Assembly (NCBI RefSeq): GCF_006345805.1
Contig: NW_021834905.1
Span: 1-45,161 of the forward strand
Length of the DNA stretch: 45,161 nucleotides
Direction of reading: 5' to 3'
Source: Octopus sinensis
Lineage: Eukaryota
Shown: positions 13,985 through 45,158 of the stretch, piece after piece
Position numbering within the stretch: the first letter of the stretch is position 1
Layout: every line of letters starts with the position of its first letter
Position numbers and translations under genes: made by a program
The notes under the pieces: generated by a model
Database searches by the model: none
The model's input: only the letters and a program-made list of their open reading frames with translations
What the model was told of the DNA's origin: nothing

Positions 13985-14786
13985 TTTAACAAAATTGCTT
14001 CCGTGTAAACAGTGAAAATGTTGTCAATTTCCCCAAACAGGGACACAATTCGATTTTTAAACAATAACCAAAGCTTCTTCTCCCAAAGAGGGAGGGTTAC
14101 GGTTTACAATTATTTAACAAATGCAACACAACAACGCTTCCCTTACGAGGAACCAACAAACGTGATAACAATAGTTAAACAGAAATAATAATAACAACAA
14201 ACCTTACGGTAAACCAAAAAGCAGTACTCTGTTGAAGCTATAGGCCTTTATGGATCAGAAATAAACCAACAGCGGTACTCAGTAGAAGCATCTTTCGAGA
14301 AAACAGACATTACATACAGCCAAACTTCATATAGATACTTAATGCTAGCTAATTAGCAAATAATCTAATGTAAAACCCGTGCACACCTCCATCTGGACTA
14401 TTCCATTTCTGCACACTAATTTTATTTTTAATTTATTCCCATTCATGTGAAACCACATATTCAAGTTCAAGTCATTGATGCAATTTTATACCAATTGCTA
14501 TTTTTACTTTTGTTATGTTACGATAATATTATACTTTAGTTTGATTTTAATTATTACTTACTACATATAATTCAATTGTTATTATCATTTTTTATTAAAG
14601 TGAAAGCATCTGACATAAAATAGAAAAATGTTTTTGTTTCACTTTTAACACGTAATACTGAAATAGTGGATAAGATATGATATTGCTATGGGCTCGCTCT
14701 AGGTAAGAAGTTGAACATTTTTTTTTACCCATGAAACTACATGGACTCTAAGTAAGGCATATGTAAAAAAAATAAATAAATAAGAA

Positions 14787-15025
14787 GGCGGCGAGCTGGC
14801 AGAAACGATAGCACGCCGGGTGAAATGCGTAGCCGTATTTCGTCTGCCGTTACATTCTGAGTTCAAATTCCGCCGAGGTCGACTTTGCCTTTCATCCTTT
14901 CAGGGTCGGTAAATAAAGTACCAGTTACGCACTGGGGTCGATGTAATCGACTTAATCCGTTTGTCTGTCCTTATTTATCCACTCTATGTTTAGCCTTTTG
15001 TGGGTAGTAAAGAAACAGATATTTC
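14787..15025 (+). mobile_element. SINE family S1, full length
   Basis: GGCGGCGAGCTGGCAGAAACG...GAGTTCAAATTCCGCCGAGGTCGACTTTGCC...GTGGGTAGTAAAGAAA. Confidence 0.92.
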
Positions 15026-15133
15026 TATGTTGTCGATAGTGTAATGGCGATCCATAAACCTGTGTGATGATCGGCGATGTATCCACGATAACTACGGCAT
15101 GATGTGATACATGTTAGAACCAGTCAGTAGAGC
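15026..15133. repeat. ~105 bp direct repeat, copy 2
   Basis: Matches 13101-13194 with two small insertions. Confidence 0.92.
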
Positions 15134-15239: not shown

Positions 15240-16112
15240 CTGGTAATGTGGTACCAGACTTTAAAAGAAGTGCCATCGTCGATTTGTTAAACCTCAAAAC
15301 CTTACAGGCTGATGCCCTAGTATGGTCTCAATCCAAGAATGAAATAAGCAAAGGATAAAAGACAACCCCACACTAACTGGCTAGCATGTTCGGGGGAGGG
15401 AGTAAGTCGATTACATCAACCTCAGTATACAACTGGTACTTAAGGATTAAAAGCAAAGACAGCGGAATTTGAGCGTAAAGACGGACGAAATGCCGCTGTC
15501 CACTTTGTCCGGCGTACCCAGGATCTACAAGCACCCCGTCTACTGACGCATGTAATATCGGTTTCAAAGTTTGGCACAAAACCAGCAGACTTCAGTGATC
15601 AACTATTACTTCTTTTATCGATCCCGAGAGGATGAAAGGCAAAGTCAACCTCGTCGAAATTTGAATTAAGAACGTAAAGACAAACGAAATGTCACTTAGC
15701 ATTTTCATCGTCGTACTAACGATTCTACCAGCCCGTCGCCTACGGGTCAATGTAAAATCGGTCTCAAATTTTTGTGCAAGGCTAGAAGTTTCGAATGGGG
15801 AGGGGGCCAAGTCGATTAAATCGACCCCAGTGATCAACTGGTGCTTGTTTTATCAACCTCGAAAAGATGAAAGGCAAAGTCAACCACGGTGGAATTTGAA
15901 CTCAGAACGTAAGGACGGACGAAATACCTGTTTCTTTACTACCCACAAGGGGCTAAACACAGAGAGGACAAACAAGGGCAGACAAACGGATTAAGTCGAT
16001 TACATCGACCCCAGTGCGTAACTGGCGGAATTTGAACTGAGAACCTAGCGGAAGACGAAATACGGCTAAGCAGTTTACCCGGCGTCCTAACGTTGCTGCC
16101 AGCGCGACGCCT
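15240..16112 (-). mobile_element. SINE cluster: S3 tail fragment (+) then 3-4 tandem S1-type copies (-)
   Basis: Repeated GATGAAAGGCAAAGTCAACC and GGAATTTGAACT motifs near 15465, 15630, 15867 and 16027. Confidence 0.8.
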
Positions 16113-16709
16113 TTGAGTGATATATGTAATACCAACATGGCATATTGGTAATGTAGTCAAAATATCTTAATGACAGGTAGTAAGAGATATTGCCCTTTGC
16201 GGGAAGTCAGTGCTCAAGAAGCTAACGCAAATGCAGCAAAAAAGCTTAACGTCGAATGTTCTAACTATGCCACCAGGTTAATTTCTTAGATCTGGATTCT
16301 TTTTTATCGACCCCCGAGAGGCTGTAGCATGTTTAAAAAAAAAATTTTTTTTAACATTTTTAATGGGACACTCCTAAGAAGCTCGCTTCGCTTTAAGTCC
16401 CACAACGTGGTGCATTGGGGGAAACGTCATCCATTATAGCCCCGGATCCTCCAATGCTTTGTGGTTAAATTTAATATGTAAACCTTAAAAACAGAAAAGA
16501 TCCGAGAAAGATAGTTTATACAAAATTTTAATGTTTTACATACATTTCACTTGTAATAACAATGTTAGCCACATTTTTCAAATGGACGGAATTTTTTTAT
16601 GATAGATAAGCCACCAGATAAAATATATACACCTGAGAATCTGTCAGAAAATTACATCTTCAAAAGAACACACATACACATATATAAGAGTTTTAAAGGA
16701 ATATAACAA

Positions 16710-20186: not shown

Positions 20187-20371
20187 ATGATTTATCGCTA
20201 GCCACTAAACCCTTTTTATTTTCTCTATTTATTTCTGTGTTCCTTTCTGTTGAAGAGCGTAGGCTCGAAACGTTAAAGACTTTTTCACTTCCCGAGCGTT
20301 ATACTAATACATTTGTATGTTGTCTACACCACTTGTCTTCATCTTTTGTTGTTTTTTTTTGTGAATTCTCT

Positions 20372-20373
<2 letters not shown>
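20187..20373 (+). mobile_element. Short PLE 3'-end element, family A
   Basis: Homologous to 8420-8600; flanked by (TA)n. Confidence 0.8.
20243..20278 (+). ncRNA. Minimal hammerhead motif (A6U variant)
   Basis: CTTT-CTGTTGA-A-GAGC(GTAG)GCTC-GAAA-CG-TT-AAAG. Confidence 0.62.
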
Positions 20374-20412
<39 letters not shown>

Positions 20413-20516
20413 CTGTGTTCGGTTTGTCCTTACACAGAGGCCATCCGGATTCCCGTTTGCGCCGTGAACAGGAATTAATCTTCTCTCTTCGCTCTTATAC
20501 GCCATTTGGTCTCAAC

Positions 20517-20859
20517 TCCCCCCCTCCTCATCTAACCCCTCTCCCCCCTCCTCTCCTACCTTCCCCCCCGACCCCTACTTCTTCAGTCCTTCATCCTTTC
20601 CACCCCTACTCCCTTCCCTTCTTCCCTCTTTCTCTCCCTCTTTCTTCCCTCCCTCCTTCCCTCTTCCCCTTCCCTCTTTCCCTCACTCCCCTTCTTCCTC
20701 TCTCCCCCTCTCTCTCTCCCCCTCTCTCTCCCCTCCGTCCCCTCTTTCCTTCTCCTTCCTCCTTCCTCTCTCCCCTCCTCCTCCCCTCCTCTCTCCCCCT
20801 CTCTCCCCCTCTCCCCTCCTCTCCTCCCTCTTCCCCCCCTCCCCCTTCTTCCTCTCTCC
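20517..20859. repeat. ~340 bp polypyrimidine (C/T) tract
   Basis: Almost exclusively C and T on the + strand. Confidence 0.95.
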
Positions 20860-20904
20860 ACACTACACCACACTACTTTACACATCACATCATATATGAT
20901 GTGC

Positions 20905-21278
20905 CATACTAATACATACACCAACTAATACATACTAATACATACTAATACATACTAATACATACACCAAACCTATACATACACACGTCCAGACCTCTCA
21001 TACGCACTAATACTCCTCATACACACACACACAAACAACACCCTTATACATACTAATACGTACTAATACATACTAATACATACTAATACATACACCAACC
21101 CTATACATACACACGTCCAGACCTCTCATACGCACTAATACTCTCTCATACACACACACACACACCCTTATACATACTAATACATACTAATACATACACC
21201 AACCCTATACATACACACGTCCAGACCTTCATACGCCCTAATACTCTCTCATACACACACACACCCACACACCCTTAT
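20905..21278. repeat. Nested minisatellite: 10-mer CATACTAATA inside three ~105-130 bp units
   Basis: The unit CATACACCAACCCTATACATACACACGTCCAGACCTCTCATACGCACTAATACTC starts near 20961, 21089 and 21193. Confidence 0.9.
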
Positions 21279-21451
21279 GTTGGAGCTGGTCACTCAACCC
21301 TATTATCAACCCTATTATCTCCCCTAATTTAGCTCTCGAGTCTCATGTTTGATCTTTGACTTCTGGCCGAAATCAGATCGCCATGTTGGTTCGTTAGTTA
21401 CTGCACGCATTTTTTTCTCTCCTTCTTTCAGTGTTTTTTTCTCTCTGTGTA

Positions 21452-21489
21452 TCTTTCTGTTGAAGAGCGTTGGCTCGAAACGTTAAAGA
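21452..21489 (+). ncRNA. Minimal hammerhead motif (A6U variant) at the PLE 3' end
   Basis: TCTTT-CTGTTGA-A-GAGC(GTTG)GCTC-GAAA-CG-TT-AAAGA; 5 bp stem I. Confidence 0.65.
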
Positions 21490-21599
21490 CTTGTTTTATT
21501 TATATTTCCTGAGCACCATACTAATACAATTGTTTGTTTGTTTTCCACCTGCCTTCGTCTTTTGTCTATTTTCATAAAGCTTCCCGTTATATTATATAT

Positions 21600-21660
<61 letters not shown>

Positions 21661-21679
21661 ACATATATATATATATACT

Positions 21680-21877
21680 CAATCCAAAGAAGACCAAGCA
21701 AGAAAAAACAACAATGCGAGGACGTGGTACAAGTACAGTGTTACTGGACGCTTAGGAAAGGAAAGAAAAGAAAGAGGATTTCACTTTTCGAGCGGAGCTC
21801 TGTGTCAGGAATATAGAAAAAGTCCAAAGAAGGGAAGACGGAGAAAGAAAATCGTCAACGATACACACGCGGTCACA
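21680..21877 (-). mobile_element. Short element family B with a decayed HHR (21778-21812)
   Basis: The reverse complement matches 4995-5210. The core reads CTGACAC-A-GAGCTCCGCTC-GAAA-AG-TG, with G8 and A9 mutated. Confidence 0.75.
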
Positions 21878-22929: not shown

Positions 22930-23006
22930 CATATATTCATATATATACATATGTAGGTATTACAAGATAAGGGCATGAGTAAGTATTTTATTTATATCTC
23001 GCGTAT

Positions 23007-23067
23007 TTGCCGCTGAAGAGGGGAAAATTTCTTATGAATTAACCCCGAAATTGGACCAATACGGTAA
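23007..23067 (+). ncRNA. Type I hammerhead ribozyme, canonical core
   Basis: TTGCCG-CTGAAGA-GGGG(AA AATTT CTTAT GAATT AA)CCCC-GAAA-TTG(GAC)CAA-TA-CGGTAA. All three stems pair; predicted cleavage after A23061. Confidence 0.88.
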
Positions 23068-23285
23068 TAACGAATTTTTTAGAGATTTCTATCGGTTTAT
23101 TTCGAGACACATAAATTTTAATGGTTATCGACAAAAAAATTTTTGTTTCGGCATATTTGGCATTAGAATTTTTCTTCTGCCCTTACCTTGTAAATTATGT
23201 ATAAATTTTACCTTTAAATGCATTTTTGATATGCTGGCCATTGATAAAAATTTCTTCCCGAAAAATTTTTCCCCTATTAATTATA

Positions 23286-23350
<65 letters not shown>

Positions 23351-23632
23351 TATCATATATATATATACATACATACATACATACATACATACTACACATA
23401 CATACATACATACATACTACATCTGTTTGTTGTTTACACACCCGTCTTCGTCTTTTGTTTATTTCATAAACTCTTCCTATATATATATATACACACACAT
23501 ATATACAAATATATATAAATATATATTGATAGAAATGGTAAGACAACAAAAGAAGGAAAGAGACCTCGATATTATGCAAATAGATGAATTTATCTGTAAA
23601 TATAATATCTGACAATTATTCGGTAGCCATGG

Positions 23633-30931: not shown

Positions 30932-31328
30932 CTTTTCTACTCTAGGCACAAGGCCCGAAATTTTTTGGGATGGGAGCCAGTCGATTAGTTCGACCCCAGT
31001 ACGCAACTGGCACTTAATTTATCGACCCCGAAAGGATGAAAGGCAAAGTCGACCTCGGCGGAATTTGAACTCAGGACGTAGCAGCAGACAAAATACCTAT
31101 TTCTTTACTGCCCACAAGGGGCTAAACACAGAGGGGACAAACAAGGACAGACAGACGGATTAAGTCGATTATGTCGACCGCAGTACGTAACTGGTACTTA
31201 ATTTATCGACCCCGAAATGATGAAAGGCAAAGTCGACCTCGGCGGAATTTGAACTCAGATCGTAACGGCAGACGAAATGCGGCTACGCATTTCGCCCGGC
31301 GTGCTAACGTTTCTGCCAGCTCGCCGCC
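30932..31328 (-). mobile_element. Dimeric S1 SINE within a single TSD pair
   Basis: Two tandem ACCCCGAAA.GATGAAAGGCAAAGTCGACCTCGGCGGAATTTGAACTCAG cores; flanks TTTGAA(T/G)TTGCAATATT at 30915-30931 and 31329-31345. Confidence 0.9.
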
Positions 31329-32265
31329 TTTGAAGTTGCAATATTAGAGGAAAACAATACAGCAGGGAACTTCTATGTAGCTGCTATTATTGCTAAAACA
31401 ACTGCCATATCTTTCTAAAACCACTGAAAAAAATAACATTTAAAAAGAAAAGAATTCATTGGCTAATACGACCCCAAGATACACTATGCCTAAAAAACAG
31501 ACAATCCAGCCATGACTGCCGTTGCTTGATTACCTTTACTCGCATGGCTGTTCACTCACTGATAACTTTGTTCCTAAATAATAACGGAAGGAAGTTTGAG
31601 ATAAGTGTACTTCATTGATAAATGCTAGCACAGTTGTAGATTGCCATGGTCTGTTCTGTTATAATCAATCACACGAATCAGGTAGATTAACCAATGACTA
31701 ATAAGCACTGTTATTAATGACATAAGCAAGCAGGGGTCCTTAACAAAGAAACCTGACCGTCTGAACAATGCGAGGATCATTGAGAAAGTGCTGTGGTTAC
31801 ATACCTGCGTCAGTATTAACGGGGAGGAAAACTAAAAACACAAACAATTTTGTCGATGATCCTGAAGCTGCTTTCAAGCAAATGTATAGCTGACTCAGGA
31901 AACCAATTTCAAAAAGCTTTAAAATAACACGCCTATAATTTCAGAGATCACAGGGTTTTTTTAAATACCCGTTTTATTATAGTAAACAGTCCCATACCAT
32001 TCTGGTATGGGACTATCGTCACGTGGACTTAAATGAAGAAATCTCGATTTAAATGTCCTACTCAAAAGACACAATAGAACGCCCGAATTAGAAATGTAAG
32101 CAAAGAGATTTGAACATACAATCTCTGTGTTTATAATCCAACAGCCTATCCAATCGGTTTTGGAATGCAATTGAATCAGGATAAATATTTGTTTGAGGTG
32201 AGCATAGGGTAATTTGTAGGTAACTAAAACACGAACATTGATATCTGTATATATGACGATTTATG

Positions 32266-32490
32266 AAGGCGGCGAGTTGGCAGAAACGTTAGCACGCTGG
32301 GCGAAATGCTTAGCCGTATTTCGTCTGCCGTTACGTTCTGAGTTCTAATTCCGCTGAGGTCGACTTTGCCTTTCATCCTCTCGGGGTCGATAAATTAAGT
32401 ACCAGTTACGCACTGGTAATCGACTTAATCCGTCTGTCTGTCCGTGTTTGTTCCCTCTGTGTTTAGCCCCTTGTGGACAATAAGGAAATA
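32266..32490 (+). mobile_element. SINE family S1, full length, with ~15 bp TSD
   Basis: TATATGA(C/G)GATTTAT at 32250-32264 and 32493-32507. Confidence 0.9.
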
Positions 32491-32499
32491 TATATATGA

Positions 32500-44870: not shown

Positions 44871-45158
44871 TATATTTCGGAATGGTCATTTTGCCAGTTT
44901 AGCCAATAAAAACACTCGCACTATATATTTGGTGTTATTTTGCTTCAGTGTTATTTATTTTTTATATTAATCTTAATCCTATTTCGGCCAGAGTTCTTTC
45001 TTCACAATCCTGAGATCACATCAGTGGTCCTTTGTTTTCTTCTTTCTTATTTGTAAGATTAATGTAAAAAATGAATAACACTGAAGCAAAATAACACCAA
45101 ATATATAGTGCGTGTGTTTTTATTGGCTAAACTGGCAAAATGAGCATTCCGAAATATA
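44871..45158. repeat. Long inverted repeat, ~105 bp arms with a ~78 bp spacer
   Basis: 44871-44975 is the reverse complement of 45054-45158 with about 4 mismatches. It may extend beyond the window end. Confidence 0.95.

What the first reader, a model, noticed from the sequence alone, without database searches (positions are those of the whole stretch)
20409..21590. Truncated Penelope-like element links the short HHR repeats to an autonomous parent
Seen: hidden inside a low-complexity ORF is a 37-codon GIY-YIG C-terminus (R..REQELIFSL....PFGLN), followed by ~870 bp of polypyrimidine and minisatellite sequence and then the family A HHR unit. Shorter family A copies (7565, 8395, 20187, 23420) share the same 3' end but start at different 5' points. 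Inference: they are 5'-truncated products of this PLE family, all inserted into or generating (TA)n. The adjacent upstream unit at 20187-20373 mimics the partial-tandem (pLTR) PLE arrangement and provides a second HHR for dimeric cleavage.
Basis: partly seen in the sequence, partly recalled or inferred. Interest (0 to 1): 0.7.

Follow-up and report, generated by a model that had tools for sequence, protein, structure and literature searches.

The report
Truncated Penelope retrotransposon in TA repeat
This 1.2-kb stretch is the cut-off tail of a young, abundant Penelope-type jumping gene that sits in TA repeats and carries a predicted self-cutting RNA motif, a known kind of element; the short look-alikes nearby mostly come from sister families, and many copies begin at one fixed spot that likely marks where the element's RNA starts.

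Summary
Core claim confirmed. 20410-21589 is a 5'-truncated copy of a young Penelope-like element (about 4.45 kb; RT, CX4CX2C linker, CCHH GIY-YIG; Neptune-like). 38 of 39 other peptide-selected loci join the peptide to the same terminus, and the genome holds 3,213 exact terminal 25-mers. Copies sit in (TA)n.

Two claims fail. Only the 7565 copy belongs to this family; 8395, 20187 and probably 23420 belong to sister families, the first two with their own endonuclease-coding long copies. The 20187 unit is not a pLTR: it is 77.5% identical and separated by TA, whereas true pLTRs are 92-100% identical and join the body at one fixed junction.

Extras: 27 of 82 unbiased 5' ends fall in 14 nt, giving 200-214-nt copies, likely run-off to the RNA start. 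Eight internally deleted tandem mini-arrays keep the hammerhead region (retrozyme-like). The core reads U at position 6 in 11,016 copies against 105 with A, so cleavage is doubtful.

The scan noted an altered-core family of that size, and promoter-start hotspots in another family, earlier on other DNA of this genome. New member of a known kind.

The parts
20410..21589 (+). 5'-truncated copy of PLE family A1 (haplotype A1a); last ~1.1 kb of a ~4.45-kb unit
   Evidence: Aligns to positions 3382-end of natural full-length copy L149; terminal part 94.6% identical
20410..20519 (+). Last 36 codons of the GIY-YIG endonuclease (R..REQELI..L...PFGLN)
20517..20535 (+). C-run and the family's stop codon (20533-20535), out of frame in this copy; cause of the spurious low-complexity ORF
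20516..20858 (+). Polypyrimidine tract of the 3' UTR, variable in length between copies
20905..21268 (+). Minisatellite of the 3' UTR, period 104-128 bp
21374..21387 (+). Site matching the family's 5'-end hotspot (27 of 82 unbiased 5' ends); inferred RNA start
21452..21489 (+). Minimal type I hammerhead fold: 5-bp helix I, core CUGUUGA (U at position 6), extra A, 4-bp helix II, GAAA-CG-UU; predicted cut about 100 nt before the terminus
   Evidence: cleavage untested
20374..20409 (.). (TA)n tract on the 5' side; also the 3' flank of the sister unit
21590..21677 (.). (TA)n tract on the 3' side
20187..20373 (+). Short copy of sister family A2 with an intact hammerhead motif (20242-20279); independent insertion, not a pLTR
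   Evidence: 77.5% to the element's own end vs 87.5% to L079/L094, which carry EN coding upstream
7565..7752 (+). Short A1a copy, the only short window copy of the same family; hammerhead damaged by small deletions
8393..8600 (+). Short copy of sister family A3 (core CUGUAGA, GUA at the cut site)
   Evidence: 92.9% to L115, which carries RT-EN coding 68% identical to A1
23410..23478 (+). ~65-nt terminal remnant without hammerhead, closer to the sister families than to A1; too short to assign firmly

Best explanation
The stretch is a 5'-truncated insertion of a young Neptune-like Penelope retroelement lying in a (TA)n microsatellite, likely made by target-primed reverse transcription that stopped inside the endonuclease gene. 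Shown: the family anatomy (RT, Zn-linker, GIY-YIG, low-complexity 3' UTR, hammerhead-shaped motif, one fixed terminus), TA on both flanks, true partial tandems elsewhere, a 5'-end hotspot 200-214 nt from the terminus, and sister families. Inferred (about 0.6): the endonuclease nicks (TA)n and the freed ...TATA 3' end pairs with the UAUAUA that follows the terminus in the RNA, which explains the fixed 3' end and the TATAT kept at every tandem junction. Inferred (about 0.5): transcription starts in the pLTR about 210 nt before the terminus; priming at the junction near the RNA's 5' end runs off there and gives the 200-214-nt copies, which in some subfamilies spread further on their own like SINEs; priming at the far end of a full transcript gives long truncated copies like this one. 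Inferred (about 0.5): pLTRs longer than 210 nt and the mini-arrays need a circular template or template jumps. This copy has no RT and cannot move itself. The hammerhead is under structural constraint, but is likely slow or protein-dependent.
For: Peptide: 4,233 first-look candidates, 150 scored, all 97-100% identical. Upstream frames hold RT (Pfam RVT_1 E 7.9e-8, above cut-off; GIY-YIG E 0.0048, below cut-off), DKG, YIDD, CX4CX2C and CCHH motifs. 38 of 39 non-window peptide loci carry the terminus 0.35-0.95 kb downstream. 3,213 exact termini, control 0; 128 exact tandem junctions. All 22 loci holding the body start show the same junction. Of 91 unbiased termini 80 continue TATATA and 3 are tandem junctions; 61 of 82 visible 5' flanks have (TA)3 within 14 nt vs 7.0% background. 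Hotspot: 27 of 61 starts in a 250-nt zone fall in 14 nt (p about 4e-18); 374 TA-joined starts there vs 3 at a matched site 26 nt upstream; sister family A3 has 14 of 30 starts in the matching zone and none longer than about 210 nt. Haplotype A1b: 1 of 32 copies of 300 nt or more vs 27 of 32 for A1a. Internal initiation and pLTR promoters are shown for other PLEs (PMC11167929, parts 1-2 of 4; PMC2377424, abstract and passages).
Against: No RNA evidence: no run on record as RNA, contigs only. 17 of 20 long elements have pLTRs over 400 nt and none is 200-215 nt, which a simple start-at-minus-210 model does not give. One mini-array (L146) resumes about 45 nt upstream of the hotspot. The control count of 3 misses one sequence variant (29 of 125 sampled sites, including the long A1b copies seen), so 374 vs 3 overstates the contrast. 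In the anole PLE, initiation is at a site not homologous to the target (PMC11167929), so base-paired priming is not a general PLE rule. Neptune vs Nematis is untested. None of the frames of 300 aa or more listed for the 20 long elements ran unbroken from the putative start to the stop.
Confidence: 0.85

Rival explanations
1. One reading: all short copies are random 5' truncations of this one family, and the 20187 unit acts as a pLTR that supplies the second hammerhead for dimeric cleavage.
For: All copies are homologous and TA-flanked. The 7565 copy is of the same family. Both motifs have the palindromic ACGU and lie on one strand 1.2 kb apart. PLE hammerheads are proposed to act as dimers (PMC4209133, parts 1-2 of 4).
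Against: 77.5% identity vs 96-100% in 17 of 18 measurable true pLTRs (one at 92%; 4 of 22 not measurable). It is followed by TA and an EN fragment, not by the body start. Sister families have their own coding copies. Truncation points are strongly non-random.
Confidence: 0.07
2. The 200-214-nt peak is an RT pause or a microhomology artefact on a long template, not an RNA start.
For: Most starts sit on AT/TA dinucleotides that match the target. A modest hairpin (-11.4 kcal/mol in a 60-nt window) spans the site. Long pLTRs show that templates often extend past it.
Against: The peak stays when only AT/TA sites are counted (2 of 33 such sites take 27 of 61 starts, p about 3e-17). It recurs at the homologous place in sister families whose upstream sequence differs. 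A1b and A3 are almost all short. No second-pass peak among 20 pLTRs.
Confidence: 0.3
3. The element makes the (TA)n itself, by telomerase-like slippage on the UAUAU template, rather than inserting into existing tracts.
For: 3' TA runs are longer than 5' runs (median 18 vs 6 nt, p 1.5e-6; 33 of 81 have 6 nt or more on the 3' side only). PLE RTs are sister to telomerases (PMC8557442, introduction).
Against: 40 of 81 have TA runs on both sides. One copy sits in a (TCTA)n tract with TCTA on both sides (L176). The genome is full of TA tracts without elements. Loss of target bases at the 5' joint gives the same asymmetry.
Confidence: 0.2
4. The hammerhead-shaped motif is no longer a ribozyme but a conserved hairpin with another role (RT binding or promoter).
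For: U6 in 11,016 exact copies vs A6 in 105. The lowest-energy fold pairs the two core strands into a rod (-10.2 vs -7.8 kcal/mol for helices I+II alone). A1a has U at the cut position. A change at position 6 (A6C) gave under 0.1 per min (PMC3088659, passages). Cleavage is dispensable in vitro for the anole PLE (PMC11167929).
Against: Among common variants, change falls on the positions a hammerhead leaves free (7: U/A/G/C; 17: U/A) and on a helix-II wobble, while the rest of the core stays fixed. All eight mini-arrays keep the region. The anole motif cleaves only with its protein.
Confidence: 0.4

Closest known systems
Neptune-clade EN+ Penelope-like elements (Craig et al. 2021, PMC8557442: introduction, section 11, passages; one supplement search)
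   Same: RT followed by a C-terminal GIY-YIG with CCHH, CX2-5CxxC linker, DKG motif, partial-tandem pLTRs, hammerhead in the terminal repeat, (TA)n preference.
   Different: Clade not fixed by a tree (Nematis shares the linker). About 0.9 kb low-complexity 3' UTR, U at core position 6, sharp 5'-end hotspot, fixed TATAT junction.
Minimal hammerheads of metazoan PLEs (Cervera and De la Pena 2014, PMC4209133, parts 1-2 of 4)
   Same: No helix III in the monomer, palindromic CG at 15.2-16.2, extra base between 9 and 10.1, G10.1-C11.1 pair, 5-bp helix I, mostly solitary copies from truncation.
   Different: Helix II is 4 bp, not 7-8. Position 6 is U. Sequence is very uniform (11,016 near-identical copies).
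PAc, Poseidon of Anolis carolinensis (Frangieh et al. 2024, PMC11167929, parts 1-2 of 4)
   Same: Insertion end lies downstream of the hammerhead, implying internal initiation; AT-rich targets; ribozyme may need the protein.
   Different: PAc starts at two sites in an AC-rich loop not homologous to the target and leaves a 30-40-bp tail. Here there is one terminus, followed in the RNA by a TA stretch that matches the target.
Animal non-LTR retrozymes (Li, Clavereau, Pollet, bioRxiv 10.64898/2026.07.22.740005, parts 1 and 3 of 5) and non-autonomous Chlamys such as MRC1 (PMC8557442, passage)
   Same: Non-coding tandem units with a type I hammerhead, related to PLE pLTRs.
   Different: The eight arrays seen here (units about 260-570 nt) are 90-99% identical to a present autonomous family and each has its own deletion joint, so they look like one-off products rather than an amplified family. 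They are not in the window.

Membership tests
EN+ Penelope-like element | RT domain with PLE motifs (GxxF, DKG, YIDD) | tested here: met
   Family copy L022: Pfam RVT_1 E 7.9e-8 above cut-off; motifs in alignment with 13 homologues. Absent from the truncated window copy.
EN+ Penelope-like element | C-terminal GIY-YIG endonuclease with CCHH motif in the same ORF | tested here: met
   IIY-CxxC-YIG, catalytic R/E/N positions and two His conserved; Pfam GIY-YIG E 0.0048, below its cut-off; window peptide 22.2 bits on a foreign-homologue profile
EN+ Penelope-like element | Partial-tandem pLTR arrangement | tested here: met
   22 of 22 loci with the body start, 128 exact junctions; met by the family, not by the window copy
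EN+ Penelope-like element | RT phylogeny within PLEs, sister to telomerase | not tested
   No clade-labelled reference sequences among the tool results
Neptune clade | CX2-5CxxC linker between RT and EN | tested here: met
   CX4CX2C; shared with Nematis (PMC8557442)
Neptune clade | (TA)n insertion preference | tested here: met
   also true of Naiad and Hydra, so not exclusive
Neptune clade | RT grouping with Neptune rather than Nematis | not tested
   No labelled references; homologues found are unnamed or 'uncharacterized'
Penelope/Poseidon clade | No Zn-finger-like linker before the EN | tested here: not met
   Linker present
Hydra clade | DKT for DKG, CxCX5C linker, no CCHH | tested here: not met
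   DKG, CX4CX2C and CCHH present (definitions)
Naiad/Chlamys | N-terminal endonuclease | tested here: not met
   EN is C-terminal
Minimal type I hammerhead ribozyme | Helices I and II, palindromic 15.2-16.2, extra base after A9, G10.1-C11.1 | tested here: met
   definitions
Minimal type I hammerhead ribozyme | Core CUGANGA (A at position 6) | tested here: not met
   U6 in 11,016 vs A6 in 105 exact matches; Rfam gave no hammerhead among the 150 of 187 rows shown
Minimal type I hammerhead ribozyme | Self-cleavage, as a dimer | not testable with these tools
   needs an assay
pLTR (for the 20187 unit) | Near-identity to the element's own 3' end and direct junction to the body start | tested here: not met
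   77.5% identity; TA tract then EN fragment
Non-LTR retrozyme (for mini-arrays elsewhere in the genome) | Non-coding tandem units that each hold the hammerhead region | tested here: met
   Eight arrays; in the six counted unit by unit, 16 of 20 units match the exact motif; the 4 misses were not inspected
Non-LTR retrozyme (for mini-arrays elsewhere in the genome) | Circular RNA and spread as a family of its own | tested here: inconclusive
   Each array has its own joint; no RNA data

The most novel reading that the evidence does not exclude
This Neptune-like lineage primes reverse transcription by base-pairing a nicked TA microsatellite to a built-in UAUAUA, telomerase-style. The same internal priming on one RNA yields three products visible in the genome: run-off copies ending at the transcription start that become SINE-like subfamilies, long copies with pLTRs of any length, and one-off rolling mini-arrays that are retrozymes at birth. 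It does so with a hammerhead whose normally fixed A6 has been U across several sister families.
Probability: 0.35. Interest if true: 0.6.

Novelty: new member of a known kind. Interest (0 to 1): 0.3.

Why it matters
The window copy is an ordinary dead fragment. The family matters modestly: it is young (0.9% mean pairwise difference in the terminal 140 nt of A1a), abundant and comes with sister families, so how pLTRs regenerate, why Neptune-type elements target (TA)n, and how retrozymes arise from PLEs can be tested on it with simple assays. Schostak et al. (PMC2377424, passage) state that no mechanism for pLTR regeneration was evident beyond tandem formation.

Tried and rejected
Rfam scan: no hammerhead family among the rows shown, nearly all microsatellite-driven miRNA hits. 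Pfam on the short peptide: nothing. The profile comparison included a family copy and is circular; one search replaces it. RNA: no RNA holder listed; contigs of four runs guessed to be RNA cover the junction region but show no joints or intron and cannot show starts; not used as evidence. A Pol III promoter at the hotspot, as the scan noted for another family: unlikely here, since an 8-T run lies about 35 nt downstream and five more T-runs follow. Splicing as the source of the mini-array joints: no GT donor at the joints I read. Same-family fold-back partners: none within 600 nt upstream of 82 unbiased 5' ends (3 inverted neighbours at 76-81%), though L006 and L028 show inverted pieces. Names for the closest homologues (55% identity): none. 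Luense et al. 2017 on PLE hammerhead variants is not held and may already list A6U; one search opened an unrelated paper. Searches gave no paper on this family, its hotspot or a natural A6U core; Repbase and Dfam could not be searched. In the Craig supplement I saw 3 of 4 'octopus' rows (two Naiad, one Hydra). PMC13282606 (passages) reports 31 recently active Penelope-like families in an octopus without naming them. Dropped rows: from 91 termini, 7 cut by the 1.5-kb flank and 2 mini-array junctions were left out of the 5'-end counts; 3 of the 30 A3 loci share flanks (likely duplicates: 12 of 28 if merged).

Full report
Setting. The window is contig C11376 of G000, an animal genome of 2.72 Gb in 13,516 contigs. 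I take it to be an octopus from recall and from earlier scan notes; I did not test this.

The peptide. The 37 residues at 20409-20519 are present. Pfam finds nothing in so short a piece, but a profile built only from 120 foreign homologues scores it 22.2 bits against a best of 2.9 for 1000 shuffles. In the genome it has 4,233 first-look candidates; the 150 scored are 97-100% identical. I read the 20 best loci and 20 more chosen for long open frames. Upstream the frame holds a reverse transcriptase (Pfam RVT_1 E 7.9e-8), then a CX4CX2C linker and a GIY-YIG endonuclease with the CCHH motif. 38 of the 39 loci other than the window carry the family A terminus 0.35-0.95 kb downstream. The element starts at 20410, position 3382 of a natural full-length copy. 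The surrounding 211-aa ORF is an accident of the TA tract and of a C-run length variant: 24 of 63 copies stop six residues after FGLN, a sister family does too, and 105 of 120 homologues end within 18 residues of that motif.

The parent. Twenty-two loci holding the start of the body all show it joined to a terminus by the same short TATAT junction; 128 exact junctions exist genome-wide. Twenty are long elements of about 4.45 kb with a 5'-truncated upstream copy, the partial tandem described for PLEs (PMC8557442, introduction and passages; PMC2377424, abstract and passages). Their pLTRs are 96-100% identical to their own 3' ends in 17 of 18 measurable cases and 92% in one. The family is young: 0.9% mean pairwise difference in the terminal 140 nt of haplotype A1a. 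The motifs exclude Poseidon, Hydra and Naiad and fit Neptune or Nematis; I could not separate those two.

The short copies. Only 7565 is of this family (91%). 8395 is 93% like L115 and 20187 is 87.5% like L079 and L094; these loci carry their own EN or RT-EN coding, about 60-75% identical to this family's protein. 23410-23478 is closer to the sisters but short. The 20187 unit is 77.5% like the element's end, is separated by 36 nt of TA and is followed by an EN fragment, so it is not a pLTR. A same-direction sister unit within 300 nt upstream occurs in 1 of 81 unbiased copies. It is best read as a second insertion into a shared target; a third, more distant element faces it across the downstream TA tract.

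Target. A terminal 25-mer has 3,213 exact matches, control 0. I read 90 of the first 100 listed, 91 termini. 80 continue as TATATA, 3 are tandem junctions, 8 are variants, mostly TA-like. 61 of 82 visible 5' flanks have (TA)3 within 14 nt against 7.0% of background positions. 40 of 81 have TA runs of 6 nt or more on both sides, which favours insertion into existing tracts, but 3' runs are longer (median 18 vs 6), so some TA synthesis is not excluded.

The hotspot. 27 of 82 5' ends fall in 14 nt, 200-214 nt from the terminus; only 4 fall in the 86 nt upstream. The excess stays when only AT/TA sites are counted. Genome-wide, 374 copies start there directly after TA against 3 at a matched site 26 nt upstream; the control misses a variant found in 29 of 125 sampled sites, so the ratio is inflated. 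Sister family A3 (1,462 exact termini) has 14 of 30 starts in the matching zone and none beyond about 210 nt. Within A1, haplotype A1b has 1 of 32 copies of 300 nt or more, A1a 27 of 32 (copies of 180 nt or more; 3 unassigned). I infer an RNA start in the pLTR with run-off after internal priming, and self-propagating short subfamilies. T-runs argue against Pol III. Against the simple model, 17 of 20 pLTRs are longer than 400 nt, so circles, multimers or template jumps are also needed. Eight internally deleted mini-arrays, each with its own joint repeated unit after unit, point the same way.

The hammerhead. The motif has the traits of the minimal PLE hammerheads (PMC4209133, parts 1-2 of 4). 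Positions 7 and 17 vary freely and the rest is nearly fixed, but position 6 is U in 11,016 exact matches and A in 105. A change at 6 lowered activity in one tested natural variant (A6C; PMC3088659, passages), and U6 lets the core strands pair into a rod. Cleavage is untested. The two window motifs could pair through ACGU, but no transcript is shown (no RNA holder listed).

Mechanism, marked. Shown: anatomy, fixed terminus, TA flanks, true tandems, hotspot, sister families, mini-arrays, U6. From established knowledge: endonuclease nicking, target-primed reverse transcription, pLTR promoter, internal initiation (PMC8557442; PMC2377424; PMC11167929, parts 1-2 of 4). Inferred: base-paired priming on UAUAUA, RNA start at the hotspot, circular or jumped templates.

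Novelty. PLEs with hammerhead pLTRs, (TA)n targeting and non-autonomous derivatives are in print (PMC4209133; PMC8557442; bioRxiv 10.64898/2026.07.22.740005, parts 1 and 3 of 5). Searches gave no paper on this family, its hotspot or A6U; Luense et al. 2017, Repbase and Dfam could not be seen, and I saw only part of one supplement. The scan earlier noted a family with an altered core letter in over 11,000 copies (e1-10358150; it prompted my count, and the numbers agree) and promoter-start hotspots in a Poseidon-type family (e1-9937398); I had seen U6 and the hotspot before reading those notes. Verdict: a real but ordinary truncated copy, new member of a known kind, interest 0.3.

Noticed in passing
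window 5000-5210 (+) and 21685-21877 (-): Two copies (73% alike) of a more distant TA-ended family with the same hammerhead layout; the 5064 copy has core CCGACGA (C at position 4, A6 kept). The second copy faces the element across the 21590-21677 TA tract, so one TA cluster holds three insertions.
   Followed up: partly
window 22979-23280 (+): Unrelated TA-ended unit with a canonical-looking type I hammerhead (core at 23013, CUGAAGA, long loop II, real helix III); 8 matches among fetched loci.
   Followed up: partly
window 14781-15030, 10227-10460, 31091-31330, 32262-32495, 15921-16113 and others: About ten pieces of a ~240-bp interspersed repeat with A/B-box-like motifs, likely a tRNA-derived SINE (label recalled).
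   Followed up: no
L132, L146, L271, L272, L273, L274, L289, L290; sister-family case L278: Tandem mini-arrays of internally deleted units (terminus with hammerhead plus the first 65-307 nt of the body). Six of eight resume 12-34 nt downstream of the hotspot; first units start at random points and last units end at the normal terminus (L289 ends short). Fits rolling copying of a small template.
   Followed up: partly
L037, L038, L131-L150: pLTR lengths of 20 long elements: 3 under 170 nt, 17 between about 415 and 1,500 nt, none longer although about 3 kb of flank was visible; 5 start within 40 nt of the ORF end. Unexplained.
   Followed up: no
L022:4327-6558: Best outside homologues are 52-57% identical, unnamed except one from the shark Chiloscyllium punctatum (55%); named mollusc homologues are only 44-47%. 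A hint of horizontal transfer, untested.
   Followed up: partly
window 21383-21397 and sister families: A four-codon ATG...TAG frame just after the hotspot is kept in all families compared, preceded by an initiator-like YCAGT/YCATT-type motif (consensus recalled).
   Followed up: no
window 44871-45158: Inverted repeat, 105-nt arms, 96% complementary, 78 nt apart.
   Followed up: no
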